In this document: positions 141 through 52,190 of the stretch, piece after piece
How the letters are laid out: each line of letters opens with the position of its first letter
Numbering within the stretch: the first letter of the stretch is position 1
Virus record (IMG/VR): IMGVR_UViG_3300043411_000952
Location: 10,194-74,193 of that record
DNA from: a virus
Length of the DNA: 64,000 nucleotides
Reading direction: 5' to 3' (one strand)
Notes under the pieces: model-generated
Told to the model about the DNA's origin: nothing
The model's database searches: none
Seen by the model: only the letters and a program-made list of their open reading frames with translations
Position numbers and translations under genes: made by a program

Positions 141-2138
141 ATGTTCTTACACATCAAGCAACAAGTACAGAAGCGCTTTAATGAGCTTCTGCAAAATGGT
201 CCCGTATTTTGCGTGGCCGTAGATAAGGAGAAGATCTGGGAAATGTACCTCGCTGCATTCCCGGAACAATATAAACAGGAAAACACCTGTAACTGCTGTA
301 AATCTTTTATCCGTCAGTTCTCAGGACTGGTCGGTATTAAAGATAACAAGGTCCTCACTATGTGGGACTTTGAATGCACAGATCCAGAATACACTGACGC
401 GGTTAAAGTCATGCGGGATTACATCCTCTCCTGCGAGATCGATTCAGTTTATGTCAATTCGTTCGCCAAGTTGGGGACGGATAAGACTCCTGATCCTAAG
501 CGCTCCGTAGTTTGGGAACATTATTTTGTCGCCCTTCCAGGTAACATGGTTAAGCACGAAGCTGATATCGGACCGCACCAAGGTAATGCCAGGGATAATA
601 AAAATGTTCTTAAGCGTTCTCTGGATGAGATCACTGATGACGCGGTTAATACTGTGCTCGAATTGATTTCGCAGAATTCTCTTTATCGTGGTTCTGAACA
701 TAAAGCTACACTGACTGAATTCCTTAAACTTAAAGAGGAGTACAAGAAGGTACCTAATGCTCTGCGTGACAACTTCTGCTGGGTGCAGAGCGTTAAGACT
801 CACGCGGCGGTTTGTCGCATCCGTAATACGTCCATCGGCACGCTGCTTGTGGACTTGTCTGAGGGGCGTGATCTGGATGGCGCTGTAGCTGCGTTTGAGC
901 GCGTTGTGGCTCCTGCTAACTACAAGCGTCCTACTGCGCTGGTTACCCCAAGGATGATCGAACAGGCGCAGCAACGTCTGACTGAGTTGGGTATGCTAGG
1001 CTCGCTAGAGCGGCGCATTCTGGACAGCCGCGATCTCAATGTCAACAATACGTTGTTCGTGCATCGCCCATCTGGTAGTGGAGTTTCTGATGTCTTTGCC
1101 GACCTGAAGAAGGACACTGTCGTAAATCCCAAGAGTCTTAATAAAGTTGAGGAAATCAACATCCAGGATTTTGTGGATAAAGTTCTACCCCATGCCAAAG
1201 CTATTAAAGTTCTCGTGGAGAATATCCACATGCCAAACTTTGTGACTTTGGTTGGAGCCAAGAATCCGGCAGATCCTACCATGTTTAAATGGGGAAACAA
1301 TTTCTCCTGGGCTTACACCGGGGATGTGACTGACTCCATCAAAGAGCGAGTGAAAGCCGCTGGCGGTAACGTCACTGGTGTCCTGCGCGTCAGCTTGTCC
1401 TGGCATAACCATGATGACTTGGACCTGCATATCATTGAGCCGAATGGTTATCGTATTCATTTCGGTAACAAACGGCAATTGTCGCCTACTGGCGGCATGC
1501 TGGATGTCGATATGAACATGGGCGGTGGCAAAACCCGCACGCCTGTAGAAAATATCTGCTGGGCGCAAGCTCCAAAAACGGAAGGTAAATATTCCGTGAT
1601 TGTAAATAATTATTGCCGTCGTGATAATCAAGACGGTGGCTTCGAAGTTGAGATTGAGTATAACGGTGAAATTGAAACATTCACTTCTAACACCAACGCG
1701 GCGACAGGTAAAAATTTCCCTATTGGTGAGTTTAATTACACCAAAAAAGATGGTGTCCAGTTTATTAATTCTAGCGGTAAATCCAATATAGCTAAATATA
1801 ACTCCAGAGAGAAGTGGGGCGTTAAGACTGGGCAGTTCGTCCCTGTTCGCGCTGTCACGCTCTCGCCAAACTTCTGGAATGCTGCCGCAGGAAACAAACA
1901 CTATATGTTCCTGTTGGAAGGTTGTAAATCGGACGAAAAGACTCGGCCATTCTTCAATGAGTTCCTCACACCAGAGCTCGACGCGGACCGTAAGGTCTTC
2001 GAGGTTCTGGGCAGTAAGGTAAATGTAGACAAAGCAGAAGATGAGTTGTCCGGTATCGGTTTCTCCGACACCGCGCGCAATCATGTTTTTGTTGAAGTCG
2101 AGGGCGCATTCAAACGCGTCGTCAAAGTTAATTTCTAA
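141..2138 (+). CDS. Conserved large-phage protein with YfaP/DUF2135-like domain
   Basis: 665 aa ORF; LRVSLSW..HDDLDLHIIEP and LDVDMN...VENI motifs typical of YfaP-like domains; N-terminal CNCC. Confidence 0.6.
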   Translation: MFLHIKQQVQKRFNELLQNGPVFCVAVDKEKIWEMYLAAFPEQYKQENTCNCCKSFIRQFSGLVGIKDNKVLTMWDFECTDPEYTDAVKVMRDYILSCEIDSVYVNSFAKLGTDKTPDPKRSVVWEHYFVALPGNMVKHEADIGPHQGNARDNKNVLKRSLDEITDDAVNTVLELISQNSLYRGSEHKATLTEFLKLKEEYKKVPNALRDNFCWVQSVKTHAAVCRIRNTSIGTLLVDLSEGRDLDGAVAAFERVVAPANYKRPTALVTPRMIEQAQQRLTELGMLGSLERRILDSRDLNVNNTLFVHRPSGSGVSDVFADLKKDTVVNPKSLNKVEEINIQDFVDKVLPHAKAIKVLVENIHMPNFVTLVGAKNPADPTMFKWGNNFSWAYTGDVTDSIKERVKAAGGNVTGVLRVSLSWHNHDDLDLHIIEPNGYRIHFGNKRQLSPTGGMLDVDMNMGGGKTRTPVENICWAQAPKTEGKYSVIVNNYCRRDNQDGGFEVEIEYNGEIETFTSNTNAATGKNFPIGEFNYTKKDGVQFINSSGKSNIAKYNSREKWGVKTGQFVPVRAVTLSPNFWNAAAGNKHYMFLLEGCKSDEKTRPFFNEFLTPELDADRKVFEVLGSKVNVDKAEDELSGIGFSDTARNHVFVEVEGAFKRVVKVNF

Positions 2139-2163
2139 GCACAAACCCAAATCACACAACACA

Positions 2164-2562
2164 ATGTCAATCGAAGCAATCGTCATCAAAGCCGCGCGTA
2201 AGAAGTGGCGTTTCGCAACCACCAAAGGCCACCTCAGCTTTGAGGATCTTTGGGATCTCAGCCTGGAGGCGCTCGATAAGATCGCCGTCGCGCTGGATGA
2301 GAAAATCCAGAAGGGAGGACGTAAGTCCTTCATCACGAAGAAGACCGAGAGCATGACCGAAGAGCAGGGCATGTTCGACCTCGTCAGCTTTGTCATCGAA
2401 ACCAAGATGGCAGAGGCAGACGCCGCCAAAGATCGCGCCGCTAAGCGCGGTCAGCGTGAGTTCCTTGAGGAGCTCAAGAAGAAGAAGCAGATCGCCTCTC
2501 TCGAGGGTCTGTCCCTTGAGGATATCGATAAGCAGATCGCCGCACTCGGAGCAACCGAGTAA
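2164..2562 (+). CDS. Conserved phage hypothetical protein (coiled-coil C-terminus)
   Basis: ATG at 2164 after an AC-rich leader; RF.T.KG.LS.EDLWDL motif; strongly GC3-rich codons. Confidence 0.75.
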   Translation: MSIEAIVIKAARKKWRFATTKGHLSFEDLWDLSLEALDKIAVALDEKIQKGGRKSFITKKTESMTEEQGMFDLVSFVIETKMAEADAAKDRAAKRGQREFLEELKKKKQIASLEGLSLEDIDKQIAALGATE

Positions 2563-16818: not shown

Positions 16819-17017
16819 GCTTACAACCAGGCTGGCTCATCTTGAGAAATTAAAAGATGAGCCAGTCATGGAAGATTTTGATGCTGGGCTTCGCGCCGCG
16901 CGTTACGACGAGTATGTATTTATAAAAGAGGTATTGAAAGTATATGGAGAATCAAACGAAGGACAAGGTAGTACCTGTTCCAGACTACACTCTCCCGCCG
17001 TTACAGTATCTCGATAA
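16796..17017 (+). CDS. Hypothetical protein
   Basis: 73 aa ORF overlapping both neighbours. Confidence 0.45.
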   Translation: MDKKLNLKLTTRLAHLEKLKDEPVMEDFDAGLRAARYDEYVFIKEVLKVYGESNEGQGSTCSRLHSPAVTVSR

Positions 17018-20000
17018 GACAGGGACTGTTCGCGGGCATAATGGTGTTACATTTGTTTCTGGGGAAGGCATAAAGCCAGCCGATATAATGTTTATTACTT
17101 CCTGCGTATCCCCGCAGGAGGCTAGTAAATTTCTTAAAGGCAGAGACGGAGGGCAGGGCGTCCGGGTGCAGCCTCGTTATCTGAGGTCAGACGCCGGTGT
17201 TATGTTCTCTGATATTTTTAATCAGGAGGGTATCGATCTTTATAAGTGCTACTACACAGCGCTGGTCAAATGGTTGCTGCCCAAGAATGAACGCATTAAG
17301 ATACCGAAAGATGTAGTGGCTTGGGCGCTTCCCTCACTAGAAGAAGAGATAGCTCTCGTAAGCCCTAAGATCATTGTATGTATCGGCAAACCTGTCTTTG
17401 ATCTTCTAGCAAATATAAAGCTGTCTTTGAGTGACGCCAAAAGCGGTTGGTTTTATAGCGAGAAGTACAACGCTAAAATATATCTCCTCGATGATACATA
17501 TAAGCTTGTCTCTAACCCGGAGTACATTGGAAAGTTCCAGGTAGAAGCTAGAGAAATTAATAGGATGTATAAGGAGATATGTAATGTATCCACCGGACGC
17601 ATTCCTTTAGAGTATGAGACAATTACTAATTCCTCTGATCTTAAAAGAGTAGTTAGCAATTGGAAACAGAATAATTTTGATGTAATTAGTGTGGACTGTG
17701 AGTGGTCTGGTAACAACCATATAGACGGTAAATTACGCAGCACGCAATTTTGCTGGGCCCCCGGTAAGGCATGTTATGTCCGCTGGATGGATGACAAGGG
17801 TAATTACACCTTTGATATTTCGTATAAAGAAGCAGGCGCTATACTTTCAGAGTGGTTAGATTTAGAAGATGTAAAATACATCGGGCATCACTTTGCTGCT
17901 GACGCCCCATGGTTGCATCATGTACTAGGACTTAATTGGTATGAGAAGTGTATTTTCGATACCGAGTTTGCGCAACAAACTGCTAATGAGGCCGAGGACC
18001 TTTCCTTAGAGCGAATAGCCCTGAAGTACACGGATTTAGGAAGGTATGACCTAGATCTTGTGTTGTGGGTTAAACAGAACAAGGCATTAATGGTGGATGG
18101 TGGCTACGGCGCTATTCCGGATGAGATTCTTATACCTTATGCGTGTTTACGCCAAGAAAGTTTAGTACAGCTAGGCGATGGATCTTGGTGTAAAATTAAA
18201 GATCTAGTTAACAGTAAATATGCAGGAGAAGTTAAGGCTGTATTAAATGGTAAAGTACAGAATTGCAAAGTTACTAACTGGTACAAAGTCAATACCAGAC
18301 AAAAAGTGTGGAAGAGGTTAGTAACTAAATATGCACAGAGAGGAAAGCATGGTTACTTAGGTCCGGTATTAACCCCTGATCATAAGGTAATAACGCAGAG
18401 AGGTAAGGTAGCAGTGCAGGATATTATACCTGGAAAGGATAGTATTTGTACGTCTTACAATACTTTTACGTCTACACAATTATCTGTATTTTTAGGTTGT
18501 CTACTAGGCGATGGCGGCATCGCGAGGAGAAACAAAGCGCACGCTGGTTTAGTTATGAGCCAGTGTGAAAAACGCGCTGATTATTTGAAGTGGAAAGTTA
18601 ATGTACTTTTTGGTGACCCTGAAAATGTAGAATCAAAAGGTTCTTTATGCGCTTATAGATCCAAGTACACTCCATACATTGCCGCGTTATCGGATACATG
18701 GGAGAGAAAAGAGGCCTTGGCGCATAGTAAAAGAAAATTATTAATTACTGAAAATTTACTAGACCATCTTCAAGCGCCGGGAATAGCTGTCTGGTATCAA
18801 GATGATGGTAACCTAACTTGCGGTAACGAGGTACGTATTACTATTTACCATTTACAAGAGCAGGAGCTTGCCGCCTTACGTTCTTGGTTTAGAAGCAATA
18901 TGGGTGTGTATGTTAAATATAGAAAAAATCAGAATCATATATGCTTTTCAGTTAAAGATTCTGTTGTTTTTTTAAATTATATTAAAGATTATATACATAA
19001 TGATTGCGGATATAAAACCAATGTTCCGTATAATTTGAAGGTCAACGCGCATATACCAGGTCCTTTGTACTTTGAACCTATTGTTGGTATTAGTGACGTA
19101 CCGGTCAAACCTTGTAGCGGTGATGGTATTCGTTACTGCTTAGCTGTAGATAAAGCGGAGAACTTCTTAACTAAGTCTGGTTTTGTTTCTAACTGCAAAG
19201 ACGTAGATACTGTCTTTAGAGCATGGCCAATTATTCAGCGGAGTCTGCAGGCTCAAGATCTTCTAGACTATTATAATAATATATTTCATCCGTTTGTTAC
19301 GGATGTATTTGTGAGTTTCGCCTTGGTTGGCCTTCCTATGGATGTAGCCATGATGGACGAGCTTAGAGTTTTATACACGTTTGCTAGAGACAAAATGGAA
19401 GTTATCCTGCGTGAGGAGATTCATGTAGAGGCTAAGAACTTTGTTTTAATGGCATTTGCAACTAGGTTACCTCCTGAGCTTGCTACTGAAAAATATTTAG
19501 AGTTCATTTCTTTAATAGCTAATTCAGAGCATATGGAGGCCTGGGCGGTGCTTAAAGGATCCGCTAAAAAGCCTGATGATGTACCTAAACTTAAACATAT
19601 ATTCGACCACTTTATTGACAGCGCGCATTTCAATATTAGATCTTCAACACAGTTAAAACGCTGGTTATTTAATGTTAAGTGTTACGAGCCTGTAAAGTCG
19701 ACTGGTAATAAGGAGAAAGGGCTACCTGCAACATCATGGGAAAAGATTAAGTCCATGCCGCCAGAGGCCCAGAAGAATTATAATCCTGCTGTTGATAAAC
19801 AAACGCTGCAGATTTTATCTGAACAGAATAATGACGCGCTGCTTCGTAGGTTATTACAATTGAACGCTGTAGGTAATATATGTAAAGCTTTCCTTAAAGA
19901 GGCCGACATAGATGCTGACGGTAACGTTGTAAAAGAGAACGGGCTACATTTTTACCTATGCAGCGATAATCGTGTGCATGGGCAAATGAGTACCACAGAA

Positions 20001-23000
20001 ACCGGAAGACCCCGGTGCGTCCACGGTGACACTTTAATACGTTGTTTTGATGGTTTTAAACGTATAAGAGATATTAAAATTGGTGACCTTGTCTGGACAC
20101 ATTTAAACAGATGGAGAAAAGTAGAGGATACATATATTAAGCCAGCGGCCCCCATGTATAAGGTAAGTTTTGAAAATGGGGAAGTACTGTTATGTACTGA
20201 GGAACATTTACTATTGACCGAAGCTGGAAAGTGGATATCTGTTAGAGATGTCTGTTTGCAAAAAGCATTTAAACAATCCGGAACTGAGGAAGAAAGTTGT
20301 TTCTCTTTACCGAGAGTCCTTGAGCACCGCCGAGCAAGTAGCGGAGATTTTGAATATAACTCCGCATACTACTTATCGAATACTTCGTCTAGAGTTAGGC
20401 GAGGAAGAATTCAAAAAGCTCAAAGCGATAAAATACTCGAGCTCAAAGCTGGGAGAGAAGAATCCTTGGAAAGGGAAGAGGGGGGAAGAGGCCGCGACCT
20501 GGAAGGGGGATTGCGACGATGGTTACGGTTATTTAACACGCCTAATAGATGGCCAACGTTACTTCGTACATCGTATAGTCATGGCAGAGGCGCTGGGTAT
20601 ACATCCCTCGCAGTTGCCGGATCATCTAGCTGTGCATCATATAGATCAGGATCGGAAAAACAACGCACTAGACAACTTAGCGCTCTGCACCACATCCGGG
20701 CACAGAGGTATCCACGAAAGATACAAACATACCGATCAGGAATTAAAATTAAAGGGGTTGTCCCTTGCGGAAGCTATCCAGTATATGACATCTCCGTAGA
20801 GGAGGATCATTCCTACGAGGCGTCCGGTTGTTTTTCGCACAATTCTTGGAAACCAAACTCGTTGAATTGGCCTAGCTATGTTAACTCCATGATTTCTAAT
20901 GGTATAGCTGGTCTTTTTGGTAAACTAAAAGAACGCGGAGAATTACCAGAAGAGTTTGAGAAGTTTATTATTAAAAATGATAAGGGGGAATACAAGAGTG
21001 AGGTACCTTCTATACGCAGTTGCGTTAAAGCTCCTGAAGGTTGGTGCTTTGTAGAGTCCGATTATCAGACTGCGGAAATTAGAGGACTAGCCTTTGTATC
21101 AGGGGATAAAAACCTAATTGATATTGTTTGTAACCCCGATTTAAATTTTGCGGTTACTAAAGATGATAAAAAAGTTCGGCTGGCTTTTCCTCCTGAAGTG
21201 TTTCCTCCTTCCACACAGGAAGAGTATAAACACCTCCTTATTTCCCCGGATGATCCATCCTTAATAAGAAAAGATGACGGTTCTTTGAAACATCCTAAAC
21301 AGGACCTACATTGGTCTTTGGCTGAGATGGTTCATATTAAACCTAGAGAAGTACTTGACGAAAAGAAAGACCGTGGTGCTGCTAAGGTAGGTAACTTCAG
21401 CTGCGTTAATAAATATACAAAAATACGTACAGAAAAAGGTGTTCTAAGCATAGAAGACGCGATAATTTATGGTTGTACTTATGTATGGGATGGTTTAGAT
21501 ATGGTGTCTTATGATTCCATACAATACCAAGGAAATAGATTCACAATTAATTACCAAGGACTGTCCGCAACCCCAGACCATGTTGTCTGGCTCTCAAGTG
21601 GAGAAAAGTGTTGTTTCGGAGAAGCTGCCTTGCGAGGTCTCAGTATTAAATCGTATAGCGGCTTTGAATTGGATACGGCTGGTAGCAGACACAAGAACAA
21701 TAGAACGCGCAAGAAAAGGCATCATATTTATGGTGCGGTGTCAAAGGTGTCAGAAAACAACGCGCAGGTGGTTACACAACGTGGAGGCGGGCAAAGGTCT
21801 AAAATGTCGATGCCTGTCTCCTTTGCGATACAACGACCCACGCGCGCGCACACTAGGCGCAAGGTATCAAGCTATGCGTCAAAGGTGTTTTCTAGACAGC
21901 CATGTCAGCAGCTACAATTACAAGGGGCGAGGCATAAAACTAATATTCAAAAGTCGCAGAGAATTTATTTTATGGGCGCTTCAAAGATGGCCGGATACAG
22001 ACTTCAAAGGTTTGGATTTCGACAGAATAAACAACGATGGCCACTACTCGAAGGGCAACCTACGTTTGGTCACAAGGCAAGAAAATTTAAGAAATACGAG
22101 AGCTTCTCGCTGGTCCTACCGCGTACGCGCCGAGAAGTTATTAAAAGACAACCCAGGTGTGAGTGTCTCTATGAAAACGTTATGGGGCATGCTGCAAATG
22201 GGGTATTCGGAAGAAGAAATACTTCTAAGGATAAAGTCTGGAGAAATAAAGAGCCGGAAGGCAATATTAGCAAATGCGAAAGTATTGCAAGCCAGGAATT
22301 TAATAAGATTAAATCCGGGCTTGGTTGTAGGAGAGAAACATATAATGAGTCTATATCGGAAAGGATTAACCGATCAGGATATAATAGAACATGTGGCGAA
22401 GCACGAAGAGTTAACTTTGCGTATTCGTCAGGCGAAGCAGCGCAGAGAAAACTCTTTGCAGCGATCGGCTCGTATAGGTATAGGCTTCGCGGCCAGTACT
22501 ACAAGAAAGATGATACGAGAAGGTCTATCCGACGAGCAATTGCTGGCGGCGTGGGAAAAATCGTATGTAAAGTCAGAATCAATCAGGCAGAAGATAGAGA
22601 GGCTTGGCTTGAAGCTCAGCGTATCTACTACGCACAGGTTGATGAAGCAGGGCATGTCGGACGCGCAGTTAGAAGAATATTCGAAGAAAAGGGTTTTAAG
22701 CTCACAAAAGAGCCAGTATACGATATAATAAACGCAGGACCAAGGCATAGATTTGTTGCCAGTGGCTTGCTTATATCTAATTCGGCATACGGCGCGTCCG
22801 CCTCAACCCTGGAACGCAAAATTGAACAGGATACAGGTAAGAAGCCAGAAGAAGGTACAGGTCAGCGGTTATTGAAGGCGCTTGAAAAACGTCAGCCAGT
22901 AGCACAAGACTTTTTAATTAAAATGGAACGTGTACCAGAGAAGCCCGGATATTACCGCGCAGCATCTGGAAGAATTCGTCATTTCGCTTCCCATGATCCA

Positions 23001-23387
23001 AAATACCTGGATGACATTGACGAGCATTTGACTATGGGCTTGTTTAAGTCTATGGGTAGAGAAGCTCGCAATTTCCCGATGCAGGAGAGTGTAGCTGCCA
23101 CCGCTGCGCGAGCAGGTAAATGGCTGCTAGATGCTTACATCAAGTTAAATATGCAGGCTAGACCATTGATTATTTTATATGATTCCGTTGTTACTCTTTG
23201 TCCACTTGAAGAACGATTTAAGGTTGCGCAATTGCACCAGCTCTTTATGACGGATGAGAACACATGGGAGTACCATGGAAGAAAAATGTCGTACCCTATC
23301 GACAGCGACTTCGTATATCGTTGGTCGGCTAAACCTGATAAAGATGATAAAAAATTGCTAGAAGATAAAACTTACAAAACCAACTGA
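16944..23387 (+). CDS. polA: Family A DNA polymerase precursor: UDG-like N-terminal domain, 3'-5' exonuclease, polymerase, three inteins (mature ~1061 aa)
   Basis: ExoI VDCE, ExoIII YA|CKD, TETGR, motif A DYQTAEIR, motif B R.AAK.GNFS|SAYG, NFPMQ, motif C YDS; N-terminal YYTALVK...EEEI..VSPKIIVCIGK. Confidence 0.93.
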   Translation: MENQTKDKVVPVPDYTLPPLQYLDKTGTVRGHNGVTFVSGEGIKPADIMFITSCVSPQEASKFLKGRDGGQGVRVQPRYLRSDAGVMFSDIFNQEGIDLYKCYYTALVKWLLPKNERIKIPKDVVAWALPSLEEEIALVSPKIIVCIGKPVFDLLANIKLSLSDAKSGWFYSEKYNAKIYLLDDTYKLVSNPEYIGKFQVEAREINRMYKEICNVSTGRIPLEYETITNSSDLKRVVSNWKQNNFDVISVDCEWSGNNHIDGKLRSTQFCWAPGKACYVRWMDDKGNYTFDISYKEAGAILSEWLDLEDVKYIGHHFAADAPWLHHVLGLNWYEKCIFDTEFAQQTANEAEDLSLERIALKYTDLGRYDLDLVLWVKQNKALMVDGGYGAIPDEILIPYACLRQESLVQLGDGSWCKIKDLVNSKYAGEVKAVLNGKVQNCKVTNWYKVNTRQKVWKRLVTKYAQRGKHGYLGPVLTPDHKVITQRGKVAVQDIIPGKDSICTSYNTFTSTQLSVFLGCLLGDGGIARRNKAHAGLVMSQCEKRADYLKWKVNVLFGDPENVESKGSLCAYRSKYTPYIAALSDTWERKEALAHSKRKLLITENLLDHLQAPGIAVWYQDDGNLTCGNEVRITIYHLQEQELAALRSWFRSNMGVYVKYRKNQNHICFSVKDSVVFLNYIKDYIHNDCGYKTNVPYNLKVNAHIPGPLYFEPIVGISDVPVKPCSGDGIRYCLAVDKAENFLTKSGFVSNCKDVDTVFRAWPIIQRSLQAQDLLDYYNNIFHPFVTDVFVSFALVGLPMDVAMMDELRVLYTFARDKMEVILREEIHVEAKNFVLMAFATRLPPELATEKYLEFISLIANSEHMEAWAVLKGSAKKPDDVPKLKHIFDHFIDSAHFNIRSSTQLKRWLFNVKCYEPVKSTGNKEKGLPATSWEKIKSMPPEAQKNYNPAVDKQTLQILSEQNNDALLRRLLQLNAVGNICKAFLKEADIDADGNVVKENGLHFYLCSDNRVHGQMSTTETGRPRCVHGDTLIRCFDGFKRIRDIKIGDLVWTHLNRWRKVEDTYIKPAAPMYKVSFENGEVLLCTEEHLLLTEAGKWISVRDVCLQKAFKQSGTEEESCFSLPRVLEHRRASSGDFEYNSAYYLSNTSSRVRRGRIQKAQSDKILELKAGREESLEREEGGRGRDLEGGLRRWLRLFNTPNRWPTLLRTSYSHGRGAGYTSLAVAGSSSCASYRSGSEKQRTRQLSALHHIRAQRYPRKIQTYRSGIKIKGVVPCGSYPVYDISVEEDHSYEASGCFSHNSWKPNSLNWPSYVNSMISNGIAGLFGKLKERGELPEEFEKFIIKNDKGEYKSEVPSIRSCVKAPEGWCFVESDYQTAEIRGLAFVSGDKNLIDIVCNPDLNFAVTKDDKKVRLAFPPEVFPPSTQEEYKHLLISPDDPSLIRKDDGSLKHPKQDLHWSLAEMVHIKPREVLDEKKDRGAAKVGNFSCVNKYTKIRTEKGVLSIEDAIIYGCTYVWDGLDMVSYDSIQYQGNRFTINYQGLSATPDHVVWLSSGEKCCFGEAALRGLSIKSYSGFELDTAGSRHKNNRTRKKRHHIYGAVSKVSENNAQVVTQRGGGQRSKMSMPVSFAIQRPTRAHTRRKVSSYASKVFSRQPCQQLQLQGARHKTNIQKSQRIYFMGASKMAGYRLQRFGFRQNKQRWPLLEGQPTFGHKARKFKKYESFSLVLPRTRREVIKRQPRCECLYENVMGHAANGVFGRRNTSKDKVWRNKEPEGNISKCESIASQEFNKIKSGLGCRRETYNESISERINRSGYNRTCGEARRVNFAYSSGEAAQRKLFAAIGSYRYRLRGQYYKKDDTRRSIRRAIAGGVGKIVCKVRINQAEDREAWLEAQRIYYAQVDEAGHVGRAVRRIFEEKGFKLTKEPVYDIINAGPRHRFVASGLLISNSAYGASASTLERKIEQDTGKKPEEGTGQRLLKALEKRQPVAQDFLIKMERVPEKPGYYRAASGRIRHFASHDPKYLDDIDEHLTMGLFKSMGREARNFPMQESVAATAARAGKWLLDAYIKLNMQARPLIILYDSVVTLCPLEERFKVAQLHQLFMTDENTWEYHGRKMSYPIDSDFVYRWSAKPDKDDKKLLEDKTYKTN
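18144..19193 (+). mobile_element. Intein 1 of DNA polymerase (350 aa) with in-frame LAGLIDADG endonuclease
   Basis: Starts CLRQESLV, block B LTPDHKV, LGCLLGDG and WYQDDG, ends FVSN followed by Cys; sits in ExoIII. Confidence 0.92.
20016..20843 (+). mobile_element. Intein 2 of DNA polymerase (276 aa), endonuclease out of frame
   Basis: Starts CVHGDTLI, block B CTEEH, block F VYDISVEEDHSY, ends SHN followed by Ser. Confidence 0.92.
20248..20799 (+). CDS. HNH endonuclease (HTH + NUMOD-like + HNH) nested in +1 frame inside intein 2
   Basis: GEKNPWKG, VHRIVMAEALG, VHHIDQDRKNNALDNLALCT..GH..IH. Confidence 0.85.
   Translation: MSVCKKHLNNPELRKKVVSLYRESLSTAEQVAEILNITPHTTYRILRLELGEEEFKKLKAIKYSSSKLGEKNPWKGKRGEEAATWKGDCDDGYGYLTRLIDGQRYFVHRIVMAEALGIHPSQLPDHLAVHHIDQDRKNNALDNLALCTTSGHRGIHERYKHTDQELKLKGLSLAEAIQYMTSP
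21402..22781 (+). mobile_element. Intein 3 of DNA polymerase (460 aa), endonuclease out of frame
   Basis: Starts CVNKYTKI, block B ATPDHVV, block F VYDIINAGPRHRF, ends ISN followed by Ser; sits in motif B. Confidence 0.9.
21511..22728 (+). CDS. HNH-family endonuclease with C-terminal tandem helical repeats, nested in +1 frame inside intein 3 (true start probably TTG 21664 or ATG 21730)
   Basis: Cys pairs, YQAMRQRC...Y.GRGI, DFDRINNDGHYSKGNLRLVTRQENLRN, then four G(Y/L/M)(S/T)(D/E)xx(I/L) repeats. Confidence 0.82.
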   Translation: MIPYNTKEIDSQLITKDCPQPQTMLSGSQVEKSVVSEKLPCEVSVLNRIAALNWIRLVADTRTIERARKGIIFMVRCQRCQKTTRRWLHNVEAGKGLKCRCLSPLRYNDPRARTLGARYQAMRQRCFLDSHVSSYNYKGRGIKLIFKSRREFILWALQRWPDTDFKGLDFDRINNDGHYSKGNLRLVTRQENLRNTRASRWSYRVRAEKLLKDNPGVSVSMKTLWGMLQMGYSEEEILLRIKSGEIKSRKAILANAKVLQARNLIRLNPGLVVGEKHIMSLYRKGLTDQDIIEHVAKHEELTLRIRQAKQRRENSLQRSARIGIGFAASTTRKMIREGLSDEQLLAAWEKSYVKSESIRQKIERLGLKLSVSTTHRLMKQGMSDAQLEEYSKKRVLSSQKSQYTI

Positions 23388-23388
23388 C

Positions 23389-24969
23389 ATGTCATTCGTT
23401 CCTACTGATTATTCTGAAATTCAAAGACAACTGAAAGCTGAAAAAGAAAACAGCTACTGGGGTGGTTATTACAAGCCAGGTATTTATGGCGGCACACCCA
23501 CACAAAAGAAAATGTTCTCCGGTAGAATTTTACCGGCGTTTAATTATGCCTTATCCCAGGCTGACGCGGATTTCCAGTCTTCCTGGATGCCGTATCGTAA
23601 TGCAGATAATATCGACGCGGAAACTAATCAGCCGGTACTCAGCGCTTTCTTCGCTGTTGTGGCTGCTTACTCCTGGTTCGGTAATAAACAAGTATCGTTC
23701 CTGAGCCCTTCAACATTGCGATTCACTCACAGTATTTCGCGCGGCCCTGAGCTCATCGATCCTGTGCAGGATATTCGTAACTTCGCCAAGAAGCATGACG
23801 ATCCAGCTATACGCGCTTTAACTGAACGCCCTGAAAATAAGAAAGACGCTAAAATTGTCATTCCTTATCCTCAGCGTCGTTATGTGTTTAACTTCTTTGG
23901 TACTGCAGGTACAGACCGTAATGTTAGAAATTATTTAGTCGATGTATCTCAGAAGGCCTTCGAAGACCTAGCCGGTAAGCTGTCCGAGTGGCGTCCCGCG
24001 CATGAGCAGACTATTGATCCTAACTGGCCTCATTATTTATATGGTGATATTACTGATCCGCAAAGCGGTGTTATGGTTGAGACTACCCCCATTCCCTCGA
24101 CCCCACAGCCTTTCAACGGCTTTGTGTTTACATCTGGATCTCATAAGTCGCTAAAAGGTGTGCGTCAGTATCCCGTCCCTCCAGAAGCTATGACTGGACG
24201 TTATCACCTTTATGGTGACAGCTCCGCCTTTAAAGTTATGGGCGCGCAGGAAATTATTGAGTTCCTCGTAGAGGACGGCGCAATTCCTTATCATTTGATC
24301 GAGGAGGTGTGTAGTAACTACGCACATATTCCGCCAAGCCCAAGTAGAGCCAAGGTATTTCCTGGTTCCAATTCGGAAGAAGACTTAGATTCATTCCGCC
24401 CTCCAGTGGCCAATCCGTTTGCGCAGAAACCCGCAGCCGTGCAGCAGGCCGCTCCTTATAGGCCCCCTGCACCTCCAGTGCCTGTCCAACAAGAGACCCC
24501 TCCATGGGAAACTCCAGCAACCCTTTCGCCTCCGCCGCCAGCCATGGTAGCGCCTGAAGAAAGGTTCTGGGTGTCCATGAATGGTAATACTGAAGATGAG
24601 CCTATCACTCGGGCAGAGGTGCAAAGCCTCATCAGTACGCATACGACTAGTACGTTTATGATCTGCGGTACAGGCACAAAAAGTGTTTGGCAGACTCCTG
24701 CCGAGGCTGGATTCGTGGTACAGGCTAACAAGCCTAAACCTCCAGCCCTACCGCAGCCAGCCCCCGCTCCTTCATCACTACCTAGCATAACCGCCACACC
24801 GCCCCCAGCGGTAGTCGTGCCAGTTGCTCCGCCTTCTACCTCCATTCTCACGGATGAGGAGAAAGTGGCGTATGATGAATTAAAAGCTAAGTTTGACGCG
24901 GGCACACTCCCAACTTCAGAGTTGATGAAGTTTGTGCAGTTCGTCAACCGTATCGAGAAGAAGGCTTAA
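23389..24969 (+). CDS. Hypothetical replication protein with Pro-rich linkers (possibly ssDNA-binding) and a GYF_2-like domain
   Basis: Position between pol and recA; N-terminal globular part; FWVSMNG...EP...W.TPAE between Pro-rich tracts. Confidence 0.5.
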   Translation: MSFVPTDYSEIQRQLKAEKENSYWGGYYKPGIYGGTPTQKKMFSGRILPAFNYALSQADADFQSSWMPYRNADNIDAETNQPVLSAFFAVVAAYSWFGNKQVSFLSPSTLRFTHSISRGPELIDPVQDIRNFAKKHDDPAIRALTERPENKKDAKIVIPYPQRRYVFNFFGTAGTDRNVRNYLVDVSQKAFEDLAGKLSEWRPAHEQTIDPNWPHYLYGDITDPQSGVMVETTPIPSTPQPFNGFVFTSGSHKSLKGVRQYPVPPEAMTGRYHLYGDSSAFKVMGAQEIIEFLVEDGAIPYHLIEEVCSNYAHIPPSPSRAKVFPGSNSEEDLDSFRPPVANPFAQKPAAVQQAAPYRPPAPPVPVQQETPPWETPATLSPPPPAMVAPEERFWVSMNGNTEDEPITRAEVQSLISTHTTSTFMICGTGTKSVWQTPAEAGFVVQANKPKPPALPQPAPAPSSLPSITATPPPAVVVPVAPPSTSILTDEEKVAYDELKAKFDAGTLPTSELMKFVQFVNRIEKKA

Positions 24970-27512: not shown

Positions 27513-28057
27513 TGTTTGATCAAAACTTCTCCATCATCGCTTTCCTAAAAGAAACCGGTGATGGAGTTTCTTTTCCATTTCTTCCAGAACAAATCTGGGA
27601 TGACTCATACGATATTTATTGTATAAACTGTACCACGTCTAGCCCTACGGCGAGCACGTGTACTAGTGCTTGCGATGAAACTATTCATATACCTTCTTAC
27701 GAAGTTGCTAAGCAAGGCGGCGTCGAAAATATTATTGCATCTCTAATTCATTCCGAAGGCAGAGGTACAAGTCGTATATTTACCGTACATCCTAATAATG
27801 TTTTACTGCCCATTTACAGATGGTATTTACTTAAGCACGGAGCGTCTATATCAAATGTAGATGAGTATGTACAGCGCCTCTCCAGAGTTACTGTAGATAT
27901 ATGTGAGGCTTTTCATAAGCCGACCATATTGACACTTGACCGAAGGCAGAATTTTAATTATAGAACCATAGTTAGATGGCTAGAGCTTAACCCAGAAGGC
28001 GTGTCTAAAACAGAGCAGTGCCTTAGCACTTTAAAACATATATGTCAGAAGTTGTAA
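27512..28057 (+). CDS. Hypothetical protein
   Basis: 181 aa ORF coupled to both neighbours. Confidence 0.6.
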   Translation: MFDQNFSIIAFLKETGDGVSFPFLPEQIWDDSYDIYCINCTTSSPTASTCTSACDETIHIPSYEVAKQGGVENIIASLIHSEGRGTSRIFTVHPNNVLLPIYRWYLLKHGASISNVDEYVQRLSRVTVDICEAFHKPTILTLDRRQNFNYRTIVRWLELNPEGVSKTEQCLSTLKHICQKL

Positions 28058-30642
28058 CTCCTACGAGAGAGTCCAAGATTAACATGGACGTTCTGAAACG
28101 AGGGTATTCTCAATTACCTAATGCCTTAAGTGTAATGGGGTTTTCTCAGTTACGCCCAGGGCAAGAGCCGGTAATCGTAAATATTATGGCGCAGAGAGAT
28201 ACTCTATGTATTCTCCCGACGTCAACAGGAAAGACTGCCTGCTTTGTAATTCCGACTTTATGTCTTGGTTGGCGGTCTATTATATTTTCGCCTCTGGTCG
28301 CGCTTATGCGGGATCAAGTCCAAAGCTTAACAGCTAAAGGGATTAAGGCGCAAGCTATATCCTCCATGCAGACAGAAGCGGAGAACCAAGCAGCCATGAA
28401 ACGCTGGGCGGAAGGAGAGCTTCAATTTATTTATGTAGCGCCTGAAAGGCTGCACAATGAAACCTTTAAAGAAGCCATGACTCGCGTACCTCCGGACGCG
28501 GTGATAATGGACGAGTGTTTTACGCCTGATGTAGAAATTTTAACTGAAAATGGTTTTGTTCGTTTCGATTCTTTGGAAGAAGGAGTAGAAGTAGCACAAT
28601 TTAGCACGGTTAACAATAGTATAAGTTTTGCAAAGCCTGTTGAATATATTTGCAGAGAGCATTCAGGTCGTATGATTCGTTTACATTCAGATCGCCTTTG
28701 CGATTTGGATATGACTCCAAATCATGAGCTTGTAGCTAGATACGTAGGCGGATTTAAGAAAGAATCTGTAGATAATATAAGTCTAAATTCTTATAAAAGT
28801 TTACCAGCTTCTGGTATTTCGTCTTTTGAGGGTCTAGATGATCTGACACCTGAAGAGCGATTAATGATCGCTTTTCAGGCTGATGGTAGTTTTCATGCAG
28901 AGAAAAAGTCAGGTTTGCATACTTTATCTTTTTCTTTTAAGAAGAAACGTAAAATCGATAGATTCTTGCAATTAATGCAAGATGGTGCATTTAAATGGTC
29001 AGAAGTAAAAACTAAAAATAACTATAGAAGATTCTTAGTTTTTGATATTGCTAATGCTTCTAAATATCTTAAAGATAATTTTTCCGTAAACAAATTTAGT
29101 TATAAAAAGGCTGTAAGGTTTATAGAAGAAGTAGTTGCGTGGGATGGCTCTAAATTGACATATAATACGCATTATTATTCTTCTAAGGTTAAAGATAATA
29201 CTGATTTTGTACAAAGTATTTGTATATTAGCTAATTATAAGTCTAATAATATTGTACAGGAAGATAAAAGGAAAAAGACTTTTTCCACCATGTACAGATT
29301 ATTTATATCTATGTATGTATCTGATATTGGCGCGCAACAATTGAATAAAACTGAATTTAATTATACTGGTAAAGTATATTGTGTGCGCGTACCCACTGGC
29401 AATATTATTGTGCGGCGTAAAGGCAAGCCTTTGGTTGTAGGTAATTGCCACTGCCTTTCTCAGTGGTCTGATAATTTTAGATCTAGTTATTGCCTTGTGG
29501 GTGATTTCATCCGAGAAAAGAACCCCAAGGTTGTAGCCGCATTTACAGCCACCTGCCCGGATGAAGTCGAGGCTGATATTCGGCGCGTTCTACATTTGGA
29601 GAATGCGCAGAAACTCGCGTACTACGCGCGCAGATCTAACCTTCACCTGAAGAGTGAGAATATGCTGAGCGAGACACAAATTGCGGATTTTGTATCTGGT
29701 GTGGACGGGCCTGTTATTGTTTACTGCGCTACTATAAATAAAGTAGAGCATACAGCTAAGCAATTAATGTCTGCACTACGGGAAGATGTAATTATTTTCC
29801 ATGGAGAGCTGGCACCTACGGATAAACGCGTTAATCAAGACATGTTCATGAATGATAAGATTCGTGTTATGGTTGCGACTAATGCTTTTGGTATGGGAGT
29901 GGACAAGGGTAATATACGTGGTGTAGTCCACAGGGATATTCCCGGGTCACTAGAAGCGTTAGCACAAGAAGTTGGACGCGCAGGGCGTGATGAGAAGGAT
30001 TCTGTTTGTAAGACTTTCTATTCTCCAGATAGTTACAATACACAGAAATTCTTTATAGAGTGCAGTTATCCTTCCAGGTCTGAGATTAATTCTGTTCTGC
30101 GCGTACTTAACCTCGCGGCTGATAGTAATGGTATATCACAACTCACCATTAGCGATATCGCGAAGAAGACTAATTTATTTAGTCGTAAAGTACCTGCCAT
30201 TCTAGAAGTTCTTAAGTCTAATAAAATTGTAGAACGAGAAAAGAACGGCGAGAAAATCGCTAAGATCAGACTAGACGAGAATACACCGGAAGATGACTCT
30301 AGATTTGATTTATGGTGGAATACTATTCTAGAGTATGGTATGGAAGAAGATGGATTTTTCCATATTGATTTGAATTGGTTCTCAGACCACATAGGGTTAG
30401 GTTATCAAACTGTAACTAACCATTTTAAGAAATGGGACGAGCAATCTGTAATTAGATTTGTTCCTCCGTATCGCGGCTCGGCTACAAAGATTATAGGGTC
30501 TATAGATCAAATTGACTTTGATCGGCTTTCTATTAAAGCAGCAAGAGCACACGAAAAGCTTGACCAGGTGTTGGGATATATTAAAACACCTGATAATGAC
30601 AAGCACAGTTATTTAGAAACATACTTTCAAGTTATTAATTAA
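28042..30642 (+). CDS. recQ: RecQ-family helicase with intein
   Basis: LRPGQ, LPTSTGKT, SPLVALMRDQV, YVAPERL, DE|CHC, SQW, TAT, ATNAFGMGVDK, QEVGRAGRD. Confidence 0.92.
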   Translation: MSEVVTPTRESKINMDVLKRGYSQLPNALSVMGFSQLRPGQEPVIVNIMAQRDTLCILPTSTGKTACFVIPTLCLGWRSIIFSPLVALMRDQVQSLTAKGIKAQAISSMQTEAENQAAMKRWAEGELQFIYVAPERLHNETFKEAMTRVPPDAVIMDECFTPDVEILTENGFVRFDSLEEGVEVAQFSTVNNSISFAKPVEYICREHSGRMIRLHSDRLCDLDMTPNHELVARYVGGFKKESVDNISLNSYKSLPASGISSFEGLDDLTPEERLMIAFQADGSFHAEKKSGLHTLSFSFKKKRKIDRFLQLMQDGAFKWSEVKTKNNYRRFLVFDIANASKYLKDNFSVNKFSYKKAVRFIEEVVAWDGSKLTYNTHYYSSKVKDNTDFVQSICILANYKSNNIVQEDKRKKTFSTMYRLFISMYVSDIGAQQLNKTEFNYTGKVYCVRVPTGNIIVRRKGKPLVVGNCHCLSQWSDNFRSSYCLVGDFIREKNPKVVAAFTATCPDEVEADIRRVLHLENAQKLAYYARRSNLHLKSENMLSETQIADFVSGVDGPVIVYCATINKVEHTAKQLMSALREDVIIFHGELAPTDKRVNQDMFMNDKIRVMVATNAFGMGVDKGNIRGVVHRDIPGSLEALAQEVGRAGRDEKDSVCKTFYSPDSYNTQKFFIECSYPSRSEINSVLRVLNLAADSNGISQLTISDIAKKTNLFSRKVPAILEVLKSNKIVEREKNGEKIAKIRLDENTPEDDSRFDLWWNTILEYGMEEDGFFHIDLNWFSDHIGLGYQTVTNHFKKWDEQSVIRFVPPYRGSATKIIGSIDQIDFDRLSIKAARAHEKLDQVLGYIKTPDNDKHSYLETYFQVIN
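28516..29445 (+). mobile_element. Intein in RecQ DExH motif (310 aa) with LAGLIDADG domain
   Basis: Starts CFTPDVEILT, MTPNHE, AFQADGS and AWDGS, VYCVRVPTG, ends VVGN followed by Cys. Confidence 0.92.
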
Positions 30643-35635: not shown

Positions 35636-36765
35636 TCACGACAGCATTATCATTAATGGGAGGCCCTCCTGCTATATCTGATGCCGGGATTATGCCACCT
35701 TTATTAGGAGCTGCTGGTTTATTTACTATGGCTCCTGCGCTGACTGCCCAACCGTTACAACATTACGGACAAGGACAGGAGATTAAAAGTTTTGATGCTT
35801 TCAAGCGGCTGATGCGCCCTGGTGATATTTTAATATCTGGAGATAAAAAAATTCTTCCTATACCCACTGGAGTTAATTTGGTCACTGGTAATCCTAACGG
35901 TCAACATGTTAGCGTTGTACATAACGCGCGAAAAAACTGGGATATAGACTCACACCCTTATTACGGATTTAATAGTACAAGCGGAAATATACATAAGGAT
36001 CATAATCTGCAAATATTGAGATTTAATGATGCGGCGACTAAGAATAATGTTCTTAGGGGTATGCGTAGAATGGAGCGCTCGGTAAATATTTTTGAAGAGG
36101 AAGTTAAAAAAATGTTAATAAATAAAGGTTGGCCTAGCGCTGCGGCTACAATTCAGGCCCAGTCCGCAGCGTCCGCTTTATACGACACACCCGCAGGGAT
36201 AAAGGCGGGGTTAAAGGATTTGTTCCTTCCTAATCTTTCGTCCGCTGCTTCTATTAAAAATTTAAATAATGAAAATTTCTCTGGGACTAGAAATTTCATG
36301 CAGAACGCAAAATCGTATGCTCATGCTATGGCTGATCTAATCGATACAGACCCGTCAGGTAATAAATTAAGCATAGCGGATTTTAGAAAGGTTTTACCTA
36401 AATATTCTGGCGGTGTTTGTTCCTCTATGCCCGCTATTTTAGGTAAGGCCGACATAACACCAGGCACGGCTGCCCGAGATATACTTACGTCTGATTATTT
36501 AAAATCGGATGCCTTGACACCTATAGCTAGATATATGGGGGGTAAGCCGGAAGGTTTTTTAAATAATGCGTATTTCGCTATGATGGCCAGAGCGCCTAAA
36601 ACTCTCCGCGCTTTGCCTGGACTAGGTTTACTAGGAACTGGTTTAGGCTTAGCATTTGCCAACCGAAACCGTAGACTAGAAACCGATATCTTAAATAATA
36701 ATAATCTCAAGAACACGGCTGCGCTTACCGCTCTTCTAGATAACATTAGGAATGCTAAATCTTAA
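35632..36765 (+). CDS. Permuted papain-like (YiiX/NlpC-P60-type) protein
   Basis: MRPGDILIS, QHVSVVH (His first) and VCSS (Cys later). Confidence 0.55.
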   Translation: MITTALSLMGGPPAISDAGIMPPLLGAAGLFTMAPALTAQPLQHYGQGQEIKSFDAFKRLMRPGDILISGDKKILPIPTGVNLVTGNPNGQHVSVVHNARKNWDIDSHPYYGFNSTSGNIHKDHNLQILRFNDAATKNNVLRGMRRMERSVNIFEEEVKKMLINKGWPSAAATIQAQSAASALYDTPAGIKAGLKDLFLPNLSSAASIKNLNNENFSGTRNFMQNAKSYAHAMADLIDTDPSGNKLSIADFRKVLPKYSGGVCSSMPAILGKADITPGTAARDILTSDYLKSDALTPIARYMGGKPEGFLNNAYFAMMARAPKTLRALPGLGLLGTGLGLAFANRNRRLETDILNNNNLKNTAALTALLDNIRNAKS

Positions 36766-36766
36766 C

Positions 36767-52091: not shown

Positions 52092-52166
52092 ACCCGGTTC
52101 GTTCAAAGGATAGGACAGAGCTCTTCTAAAGCTTTAATAGGGGTTCGATTCCCTTACCGGGTACCA
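52092..52166 (+). tRNA. tRNA-Arg(TCT)
   Basis: ACCCGGT/ACCGGGT acceptor, GAGCT-CTTCTAA-AGCTT anticodon arm, GGTTCGATTCC, encoded CCA. Confidence 0.93.
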
Positions 52167-52190
52167 GTTCTTTGACATTATTTAATTTTC

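What the first reader, a model, noticed from the sequence alone, without database searches (positions are those of the whole stretch)
20016..20843. Dual-coded intein: HNH endonuclease gene sits in the +1 frame inside DNA polymerase intein 2
Seen: the intein has normal splicing ends (CVHGDT...TEEH; VYDISV...SHN/S), but the ~160 codons between them read as Arg/Ser/Gly-rich filler with no recognisable domain. The same DNA in the +1 frame (20248-20799, own ATG and stop) is a clean HTH-NUMOD-HNH endonuclease. A stop in the polymerase frame would arise whenever an HNH codon ending in T precedes AA/AG/GA, and this is avoided throughout (e.g. 20401: GAA TTC AAA AAG CTC AAA GCG ATA AAA) despite an AT-rich genome. 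A rough uniform-codon estimate, (61/64)^160, is about 5e-4. Established: intein endonucleases are normally in-frame domains of the intein, as in intein 1 of this same gene. Inference: an endonuclease gene invaded a mini-intein out of frame, the filler peptide is discarded by protein splicing, and the nuclease is made as a separate protein. I am not aware of this architecture being described but could not search the literature.
Basis: partly seen in the sequence, partly recalled or inferred. Interest (0 to 1): 0.93.

Follow-up and report, generated by a model that had tools for sequence, protein, structure and literature searches.

The report
Polymerase inteins with overlapping HNH genes
A self-splicing protein insert (intein) in this uncultured phage's DNA polymerase gene carries its presumed mobility enzyme, an HNH endonuclease, as a separate gene one base out of step on the same DNA. 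A second intein in the same gene does the same. The layout is real and under selection, but this kind of layout was first described in 2025-26 preprints.

Summary
Intein 2 (20016-20843) of a 2147-aa family-A DNA polymerase gene has intact splicing ends, and its model matches solved mini-inteins. Its middle ~150 residues are predicted disordered. The same DNA in the +1 frame (20248-20799) encodes a well-folding HTH + HNH_3 endonuclease.

None of the 54 HNH codons that precede an AA/AG/GA codon ends in T, against 44 of 128 elsewhere. Given the HNH protein sequence, the chance of an open polymerase frame is about 1.6e-11. Independent assemblies from two other studies span the region without indels.

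Seventeen other metagenomic polymerase loci carry the same intein, at the same site, with the same +1 HNH (pooled 0/894 against 579/2372). The HNH frame, not the filler frame, shows purifying selection. Intein 3 of this gene (21402-22781) has the same layout with a different HNH (21511-22728), shared by 17 more loci.

A close relative (L077) has empty sites for inteins 1 and 2. More distant relatives of the HNH lie outside any intein at the same polymerase site; one sits in a polymerase CDS annotated as joined, which I read as an intron.

Gosselin et al. 2025 and Phillips et al. 2026 describe out-of-frame intein endonucleases, and this scan has noted the layout in at least 57 other genomes. 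I rate it a new variant of a known kind. Splicing, expression and cleavage are untested.

The parts
16944..23387 (+). Family-A DNA polymerase gene (UDG-like domain + 3'-5' exonuclease + PolA), 2147 codons, interrupted by three inteins
   Evidence: ORF. Pfam UDG, DNA_pol_A_exo1, DNA_pol_A, LAGLIDADG_2 and Intein_splicing. The relative L077 has 85-95% identical exteins without inteins 1 and 2.
18144..19193 (+). Intein 1 (350 aa) in the exonuclease motif ...IPYA|C...SN|CKDVD, with a conventional in-frame LAGLIDADG endonuclease domain
   Evidence: Pfam LAGLIDADG_2 at pol residues 514-671, E 4.6e-13. Boundaries come from the alignment to the intein-less L077 allele.
20016..20843 (+). Intein 2 (276 aa, class-1-like: Cys1, block B CTEEH, block F VYDISVEEDHSY, terminal HN, +1 Ser). 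It is inserted at TETGRPR|SWKPN, homologous to the PolA motif TGRLS|S..PNLQNIP
   Evidence: The model has pLDDT >=90 for residues 1-85 and about 240-276. Foldseek matches mini-inteins: gp41-1 E 3.6e-7, Ssp/Npu DnaB.
20277..20729 (+). Frame-0 'filler' of intein 2 (residues 88-238), Arg/Ser/Gly-rich, predicted disordered; kept free of stops only
   Evidence: pLDDT <50 over residues 88-238, apart from a few short stretches. Filler-frame identity among relatives is 22% against 43% in the HNH frame.
20248..20799 (+). Nested +1-frame gene, 183 aa: N-terminal HTH-like domain + C-terminal HNH_3 nuclease (VHHID..NN..DNLAL..GH..IH). Its TAG stop is formed by the block-F Val-Glu codons GTA GAG
   Evidence: Pfam HNH_3 E 3.9e-10. 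PHROGs HNH endonuclease families to 8.5e-15. Model mean pLDDT 86. I-HmuI Z 7.7, rmsd 2.2 A over 69 residues. Stop avoidance. The stop lies 44 nt before the intein end in 12 of 18 loci.
21402..22781 (+). Intein 3 (460 aa) in PolA motif B (AAKVGNFS|C...LLISN|SAYGAS), of a different intein family (C-terminal VYDIINAGPRHRF..N)
   Evidence: A contig in run X10 replaces exactly 21398-22780 by another 960 nt.
21511..22728 (+). Second nested +1-frame gene, 405 aa, HNH-like endonuclease (DFDRINNDGHYS..NLRLV..ENLRN) with helical repeats at the C-terminus
   Evidence: PHROGs phrog_374 E 1.3e-18 and phrog_3377 E 6.3e-17, both 'HNH endonuclease'. No Pfam family above threshold. 0/122 T-ending codons at risky junctions against 76/282 elsewhere. 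Relatives at 44-68% identity.

Best explanation
Inteins 2 and 3 of this phage polymerase are contiguous (cis-splicing) mini-inteins. The loop between their N- and C-terminal splicing lobes is overprinted by an independent HNH homing-endonuclease gene in the +1 frame.

Proposed mechanism:
1. The polymerase frame is translated straight through the overlap as a disordered linker, which protein splicing discards together with the intein.
2. Selection on that frame within the overlap is only for the absence of stop codons. This is achieved entirely by synonymous choices in the HNH gene: no T-ending codon before AA-, AG- or GA-starting codons.
3. The HNH protein is made separately by internal initiation at a conserved ATG just after the N-terminal splicing lobe.
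4. It nicks or cuts intein-less polymerase alleles around the TGRLS|S..PNLQNIP-coding site. Recombinational repair then copies the intein plus nested gene into the empty allele (homing).

Shown here: the architecture, its sequence accuracy, selection on both frames, family-wide conservation, and presence/absence polymorphism.
Inferred: splicing, separate translation, nuclease activity and target.
For: Stop avoidance:
- 0/54 and 0/122 T-ending codons at risky junctions in this window.
- 0/894 against 579/2372 pooled over 18 intein-2-type loci.
- 0/1231 against 887/3473 pooled over 18 intein-3-type loci.

Selection on the HNH frame:
- 43% against 22% aa identity over the same columns.
- Nucleotide variability 0.48/0.40/0.62 at HNH codon positions 1/2/3.
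- Invariant H130, H131, N139, N143, H152, H156.

Folds:
- Frame 0 matches solved mini-inteins and has a disordered loop.
- The +1 product has mean pLDDT 86 and its best structural match is I-HmuI.

Start and stop:
- 17 ATG + 1 GTG at one alignment column, with invariant M1.
- By my reading of the printed upstream sequences, 11 of 18 loci have a GGAG/GAGG-like stretch upstream of the start.
- A TAG stop 44 nt before the intein end in 12 of 18 loci.

Sequence accuracy: two independent assemblies span the region with 0 gaps.

Mobility signature:
- Close relative L077 lacks inteins 1 and 2 precisely at TETGRPR|SWKPN and YA|CKDVD.
- An intein-less junction contig co-occurs in run X2, and a different 960-nt insert replaces intein 3 in run X10.
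- Intein-3-type elements sit in several different host genes.

Not an intron: no Rfam family matches 16900-23400 at E<=1.
Against: - No direct evidence of splicing, of a free 183-aa protein, or of nuclease activity.
- The RNA-labelled runs that hold the stretch are probably DNA and are contigs, so they say nothing about expression.
- This window's own start has only a weak Shine-Dalgarno-like context (...GTTAGAG ATG), and the promoter scan inside the gene is at chance level.
- The intein-3 nuclease has Asp-Arg where HNH_3 usually has Asp-His and has no Pfam hit. Its activity is less certain.
- The structural match to I-HmuI (Z 7.7) is below the level the tool calls secure on its own.
Confidence: 0.85

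Rival explanations
1. The nuclease is not made as a separate protein. It is made by programmed +1 ribosomal frameshifting from the polymerase/intein frame, giving an N-extein + N-lobe + HNH fusion, or an intein-tethered nuclease after N-terminal cleavage.
For: - The window's own ATG has a poor Shine-Dalgarno context.
- Both nested genes are in the same +1 frame.
- Same-strand overlap would allow such a shift.
Against: - The start codon is conserved at one alignment column in all 18 loci, with an invariant Met (M1) among the family's invariant columns.
- Most loci have a GGAG/GAGG stretch upstream of the start.
- In this window the +1 frame upstream of the ATG is closed by stops within a few codons. 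A shift would therefore have to occur in a very short stretch, and no conserved slippery motif was noticed there.
Confidence: 0.06
2. The nested HNH gene is maintained but no longer acts as the intein's homing enzyme. It could serve the phage instead, for example by nicking competitor phage polymerase genes (marker exclusion), or it could be a recently immobilised relic.
For: - Related HNH enzymes such as I-HmuI and I-HmuII cut both intron-plus and intron-less alleles (PMC3428280).
- No cleavage data exist for this family.
Against: - Purifying selection persists across relatives only 31-66% identical, which argues against a relic.
- Presence/absence polymorphism at exactly the intein boundaries in close relatives is the pattern expected of homing.
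Confidence: 0.07
3. Sequencing or assembly artefact: two compensating frameshift errors put an ordinary in-frame HNH intein domain out of frame.
For: The record is a metagenome-assembled viral contig.
Against: - Independent assemblies from other studies show no gaps.
- 35 homologous loci from unrelated samples have the same frame relation.
- The polymerase frame is stop-free only because of a codon-choice pattern with P about 1e-11. An artefact cannot create that pattern.
Confidence: 0.01
4. The element does not splice. The insert stays in the polymerase as a tolerated loop, like the ShiLan insertion in actinophage methylases.
For: Out-of-frame HNH insertions without any splicing domain exist (PMC11855218).
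Against: - All splicing residues (Cys1, TxxH, block F, His-Asn, +1 Ser) are present and conserved.
- The fold matches solved mini-inteins.
- The insertion splits one of the most conserved PolA motifs.
Confidence: 0.01

Closest known systems
[quoted passage not shown]
   Same: - The endonuclease gene lies between the intein's splicing blocks but is not read in the intein frame.
- The extein/intein frame stays open.
- The proposed origin is invasion of an intein by a free-standing endonuclease gene.
- There is evidence of continuing transfer.
   Different: - Here the nuclease is an HTH + HNH_3 (I-HmuI-like) protein, or in intein 3 a second HNH-like family.
- The frame is +1.
- The hosts are family-A polymerases of uncultured phages.
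- Two such inteins sit in one gene.
Cyanobacterial dnaX intein with an out-of-frame LAGLIDADG endonuclease (Phillips, DeSimone, Gogarten, bioRxiv 10.64898/2026.09.14.751524; first noted by Gorbalenya 1998 as cited there)
   Same: - A disordered frame-0 region overlies a well-folding endonuclease in another frame.
- Selection is frame-dependent, with purifying selection on the endonuclease frame.
- Intein-plus and intein-minus alleles coexist.
   Different: Cellular host gene, LAGLIDADG rather than HNH, and a different frame ('+2ORF').
Group I intron-encoded HNH endonucleases in phage DNA polymerase genes (I-PfoP3I, I-TslI, I-HmuI; PMC3428280).
   Same: - They are homologous to the intein-2 nuclease (29-35% identity).
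- They share the domain order, with a C-terminal HNH.
- They sit in the same polymerase region: the PS3 upstream polymerase ORF ends ...TGRLSSSNPNL, and four metagenomic relatives lie next to polymerase segments that end or begin at this junction.
   Different: In those phages the gene lies outside any intein and no covering reading frame is needed; an intron was not tested for here. In this window the carrier is an intein, so the gene must share its DNA with an open polymerase frame.
Fractured genes: split inteins with a free-standing endonuclease gene between the halves (Dassa et al. 2009, PMC2677866)
   Same: [quoted passage not shown]
   Different: Here the host frame is continuous across the endonuclease gene, with no stop and no restart, so the intein is contiguous and not split.
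ShiLan insertion: out-of-frame HNH hidden in an actinophage DNA methylase gene (PMC11855218)
   Same: An out-of-frame HNH gene whose host frame has no stops.
   Different: ShiLan has no detectable splicing domain. Here the nuclease is embedded in a complete intein.

Membership tests
Intein (HINT domain, class 1) | N-terminal Cys/Ser nucleophile, block B TxxH, block F, and a C-terminal (His-)Asn followed by a Ser/Thr/Cys extein residue | tested here: met
   Intein 2 has C1, CTEEH, VYDISVEEDHSY and SHN|S. These are invariant or nearly so in 16 relatives.
Intein (HINT domain, class 1) | HINT fold | tested here: met
   The frame-0 model has pLDDT >=90 in both lobes. Foldseek finds gp41-1, Ssp DnaB, Npu DnaB and Mtu RecA mini-inteins at E 4e-7 to 1e-4, target TM 0.7-0.86.
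Intein (HINT domain, class 1) | In-frame insertion in a conserved host motif, with homologous intein-less alleles | tested here: met
   Inserted at TGRLS|S..PNLQNIP. L077 has the contiguous TETGRPRSWKPN.
Intein (HINT domain, class 1) | Protein splicing demonstrated | not testable with these tools
   Needs expression and a gel or mass spectrometry.
HNH endonuclease (Pfam HNH_3; I-HmuI-like homing endonucleases) | Profile match above the curated threshold | tested here: met
   The +1 ORF of intein 2 scores 39.7 bits on HNH_3 against a cut-off of 24.8. PHROGs HNH families reach 8.5e-15.
HNH endonuclease (Pfam HNH_3; I-HmuI-like homing endonucleases) | Conserved His...Asn...His metal-binding and catalytic residues | tested here: met
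   H130, H131, N139, N143, H152 and H156 are invariant in 18 sequences. For the intein-3 ORF the first His position is Arg (DFDRINNDGHY), so that protein is inconclusive.
HNH endonuclease (Pfam HNH_3; I-HmuI-like homing endonucleases) | Beta-beta-alpha-metal fold | tested here: inconclusive
   The best structural match is I-HmuI at Z 7.7, rmsd 2.2 A over 69 residues, 1.7 above the next row. This is under the tool's caution line of Z 8. Foldseek E is 0.058.
HNH endonuclease (Pfam HNH_3; I-HmuI-like homing endonucleases) | Site-specific nicking or cleavage of the empty allele | not testable with these tools
   Needs purified protein and the L077-type target.
[quoted passage not shown] | Endonuclease ORF between the splicing lobes, on the same strand, in a different frame, while the intein frame stays open | tested here: met
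   Also met in 17 + 17 related loci.
[quoted passage not shown] | Purifying selection on the endonuclease frame, relaxed selection on the overlapped intein frame | tested here: met
   43% against 22% identity, with the highest variability at HNH codon position 3.
[quoted passage not shown] | Endonuclease of the described types (endonuclease VII-like or LAGLIDADG) | tested here: not met
   The nuclease is HNH_3 / I-HmuI-like. It is therefore a variant, not a member of the described sequence families.
Fractured gene with split intein (Dassa 2009) | Host gene broken into two ORFs, each ending or starting with an intein half | tested here: not met
   A single uninterrupted 2147-codon ORF. All 18 family members have a covering host frame.
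Group I intron carrying an HNH gene | Intron RNA structure, with the exon frame interrupted | tested here: not met
   No Rfam match in 16900-23400 at E<=1. The polymerase frame is open throughout.

The most novel reading that the evidence does not exclude
One lineage of HNH homing endonucleases, specific for the DNA encoding the PolA motif TGRLSS..PNLQNIP, has moved between two different self-splicing carriers at the same site: group I introns in cultured T7-like phages and an intein in this family. In the intein it became locked into a +1 overprint, because that is the one frame relation in which the host frame can be kept open by synonymous changes alone. The same solution arose independently for the unrelated motif-B intein and HNH pair in this same gene.
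Probability: 0.35. Interest if true: 0.6.

Novelty: new variant of a known kind. Interest (0 to 1): 0.5.

Why it matters
- It shows that the out-of-frame intein endonuclease layout, so far reported for a few actinophage and cyanobacterial inteins, also exists with I-HmuI-type HNH enzymes. It is widespread and long-lived in phage family-A polymerases and can occur twice in one gene.
- The family is a clean natural example of overprinting in which one frame is selected only for 'no stop'. Pooled over both intein families, none of 2125 risky codon junctions ends in T.
- It supports the 'splicing domain first, endonuclease invades later' model of intein evolution.
- It links intein-borne endonucleases to HNH relatives that sit outside any intein at the same polymerase site.
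- For annotation, such HNH genes and the polymerase that contains them are both easily miscalled.

Tried and rejected
The contexts of the ORF405 relatives P0001-P0010 could therefore not be fetched directly, and I used the search for related loci with their alignment instead.
- megablast of 19000-23400 against cultured phages gave no match.
- phmmer of the HNH protein against PDB sequences gave no match.
- The search for related loci with the single ORF405 sequence found nothing.
- Foldseek of the HNH model against PDB gave nothing at E<=0.001. The best hit was I-HmuI at E 0.058.
- The sigma-70 promoter scan inside the gene was at chance (15 found, 15.3 expected), so no internal promoter can be claimed.
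- The RNA-labelled runs X3-X6 and X8-X9 are probably DNA and are kept as contigs. They give no evidence for or against expression.
- X10 and X7 have stretches without cover. These are not interpreted, except for the X10 contig that bridges intein 3.
- Only 40 of the 92 substitutions found in read laying were printed, so a dN/dS calculation between this strain and X3 was not done.
- No complex prediction was run, because no binding claim is made.
Full report
**What is there.**
The window is bases 10194-74193 of a 74-kb IMG/VR viral record, GC 42.6%. A single + strand ORF, 16944-23387 (2147 codons), encodes a UDG-like domain, a 3'-5' exonuclease and a family-A polymerase. It is interrupted by three inteins.

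- Intein 1 (18144-19193) has an ordinary in-frame LAGLIDADG_2 domain.
- Intein 2 (20016-20843, 276 aa) is the reported feature.
- Intein 3 (21402-22781, 460 aa) sits in motif B.

For intein 2, frame 0 reads CVHGDT...CTEEH...VYDISVEEDHSY...SHN|S, with an Arg/Ser/Gly-rich middle. The +1 frame holds an ATG...TAG ORF at 20248-20799. The third frame is full of stops. Pfam finds HNH_3 above threshold, plus sub-threshold HTH families, in the +1 product. In frame 0 it finds only a weak Intein_splicing match. PHROGs calls the +1 product an HNH endonuclease, with E down to 8.5e-15.

**Is it more than chance?**
A stop in the polymerase frame arises when an HNH codon ending in T precedes a codon starting AA, AG or GA. 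Of 54 such junctions none has a T, while 44 of the other 128 codons end in T.

I kept the HNH protein fixed and redrew synonymous codons from the window's own usage. This gave on average 18 polymerase-frame stops, never fewer than 7 in 50,000 trials, and an analytic probability of about 1.6e-11. Permuting the ORF's own synonymous codons never gave an open frame either.

A 405-codon ORF (21511-22728), also in the +1 frame, is an HNH endonuclease by PHROGs (E 1.3e-18). It shows 0/122 against 76/282 T-ending codons, P about 6e-23.

**Is the sequence right?**
Twenty public runs from 12 studies hold the stretch or part of it. Contigs from two studies other than the likely source span 19900-22900: X2 with 12 substitutions and X3 with 89. 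Neither has a gap, and no indel was seen in any of four runs.

**Folds.**
With alignments of family members, the frame-0 intein models as two confident lobes (residues 1-85 and about 240-276, pLDDT >=90). They are joined by about 150 residues at pLDDT <50. The model matches solved mini-inteins: gp41-1, Ssp and Npu DnaB, Mtu RecA, with E 4e-7 to 1e-4.

The +1 product from the same DNA models at mean pLDDT 86. It has an N-terminal helical, HTH-like domain. Its C-terminal domain finds I-HmuI as the best structural match: Z 7.7, rmsd 2.2 A, 69 residues. Foldseek alone is weak, at E 0.058.

**Relatives of intein 2.**
Searches with the HNH protein in viral and metagenomic contigs returned about 70 loci.

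- Every locus at or above about 36% identity has the HNH nested in the +1 frame of a long ORF. That is 21 loci, or 17 after near-identical contigs were dropped.
- The more distant loci I checked have no covering frame.
- In all nested loci the host is a family-A polymerase. The intein sits at the same place...TGRLS|C...HN|S..PNLQNIP.
- Pooled over 18 sequences, 0 of 894 risky junctions carry T, against 579 of 2372 others.

Over the same aligned columns, mean pairwise identity is 43% in the HNH frame and 22% in the polymerase frame. Nucleotide differences are 0.48, 0.40 and 0.62 at HNH codon positions 1, 2 and 3. This is the signature of purifying selection on the HNH protein, not on the filler.

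The catalytic His, Asn and His positions are invariant. The start codon is conserved at one column (17 ATG, 1 GTG). By my reading of the printed upstream sequences, 11 of 18 loci have a GGAG/GAGG-like stretch upstream of it; it lies in the last codons of the N-terminal lobe, which in several loci read ...GDEV. In 12 of 18 loci the stop is a TAG placed 44 nt before the intein's end; in this window it is built from the block-F Val-Glu codons GTA GAG.

**Relatives of intein 3.**
Its nuclease has relatives at 44-68% identity. Of the 31 closest viral loci I checked, 17 have it nested in the +1 frame. The hosts include motif B of family-A polymerases and, judging by the flanking sequence, other replication or packaging genes. 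I did not classify those hosts. More distant relatives are free-standing. Pooled: 0/1231 against 887/3473.

**Mobility.**
L077 is a close relative of this phage, with exteins 85-95% identical. It has intein 3 (a variant) but lacks inteins 1 and 2 exactly at the predicted junctions.

In run X2 a second contig joins ...STTETGRPRS directly to the C-extein. Occupied and empty alleles therefore co-occur in that sample. In run X10 a contig replaces intein 3 exactly by a different 960 nt.

**Origin.**
A maximum-likelihood tree of 38 HNH proteins puts all 18 nested genes on one side of a 100/99-supported branch. The non-nested genes lie on the other side. The tree is unrooted, so one origin is compatible with it but not proven.

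The non-nested side includes the HNH genes of Providencia phage PS3 and Leptolyngbya phage Dor1. In PS3 the polymerase CDS is annotated as joined from two pieces around the HNH gene; in Dor1 two separate polymerase CDS flank it. The PS3 upstream polymerase ORF ends ...TGRLSSSNPNL. I read the PS3 arrangement as an intron but did not test for one. Four metagenomic relatives lie next to polymerase segments that end or begin at this junction; in one of them (L064) segments lie on both sides.

So the whole HNH clade is tied to this polymerase site. Intron-encoded HNH nickases in phage polymerase genes are known (I-PfoP3I, I-HmuI; PMC3428280). No Rfam family, and so no group I intron, matches 16900-23400.

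**Most likely mechanism.**
A free-standing or intron-type HNH homing gene inserted into the loop of a mini-intein where endonuclease domains normally sit, but one base out of frame. The intein frame survived because, in this frame relation, every potential stop can be removed by synonymous changes in the HNH gene.

The polymerase precursor is translated through the overlap as a disordered linker and rescued by splicing. The nuclease is translated separately from its conserved start and drives homing into empty alleles.

The architecture, the selection and the polymorphism are shown. Splicing, separate translation and cleavage are inferred.

**Comparison with what is known.**
The general architecture is described in these sources:

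- Antisense LAGLIDADG genes in inteins (Gorbalenya 1998, as cited in the two preprints below).
- An endonuclease VII-like gene in 'frame 3', and antisense LAGLIDADG or VSR-like genes, in actinophage inteins (bioRxiv 10.1101/2025.01.02.630785).
- An out-of-frame LAGLIDADG gene in the cyanobacterial dnaX intein, with frame-dependent selection (bioRxiv 10.64898/2026.09.14.751524).
- Out-of-frame HNH genes without an intein: the ShiLan insertion (PMC11855218).

I found no paper describing HNH_3-type genes overprinted in polymerase inteins. This scan's own earlier notes record the same layout in at least 57 other genomes.

The finding is therefore a solid, well-supported new variant of a recently described kind, not a new category.

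Noticed in passing
window 21402-22781 (ORF 21511-22728): Intein 3 of the same polymerase gene, in motif B, also has an HNH-like gene overprinted in the +1 frame. It belongs to a different intein family and a different nuclease family. In close relatives it is polymorphic: a 352-aa version in L077, and a 960-nt replacement in run X10.
   Followed up: yes
window 28042-30642: A DEAD-box/Helicase_C protein has a gap of about 400 residues between its two helicase domains. Residues 155-473 match a PHROG annotated as ribonucleotide reductase, which looks like a shared intein. This is probably a further intein in this phage.
   Followed up: partly
window 36752-39592: A 946-aa ORF has a LAGLIDADG_3 match at residues 403-454 and a partial thymidylate-synthase PHROG match at residues 174-268. 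It is probably another intein-containing gene, so the phage appears unusually rich in inteins.
   Followed up: partly
window 141-2138 (+) and 1185-2429 (-): A 414-codon open frame lies antisense to most of a 665-aa gene of a conserved phage family of unknown function (phrog_1735, E 1.7e-238). The antisense ORF has no Pfam or PHROG match. It may be a chance open frame or an antisense overlap.
   Followed up: partly
L064, L017, L031, L061 (metagenomic and viral loci): Relatives of the intein-2 HNH lie next to family-A polymerase segments that end or begin at the TGRLS|S..PNLQNIP junction, without a covering frame. In L064 such segments lie on both sides of the HNH gene. These may be introns or fractured genes at the same target site. 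I did not determine which.
   Followed up: partly
window 52092-52265 and 55757-55848: Three tRNA genes: Arg-TCT, Ile-GAT and Leu-TAA.
   Followed up: no
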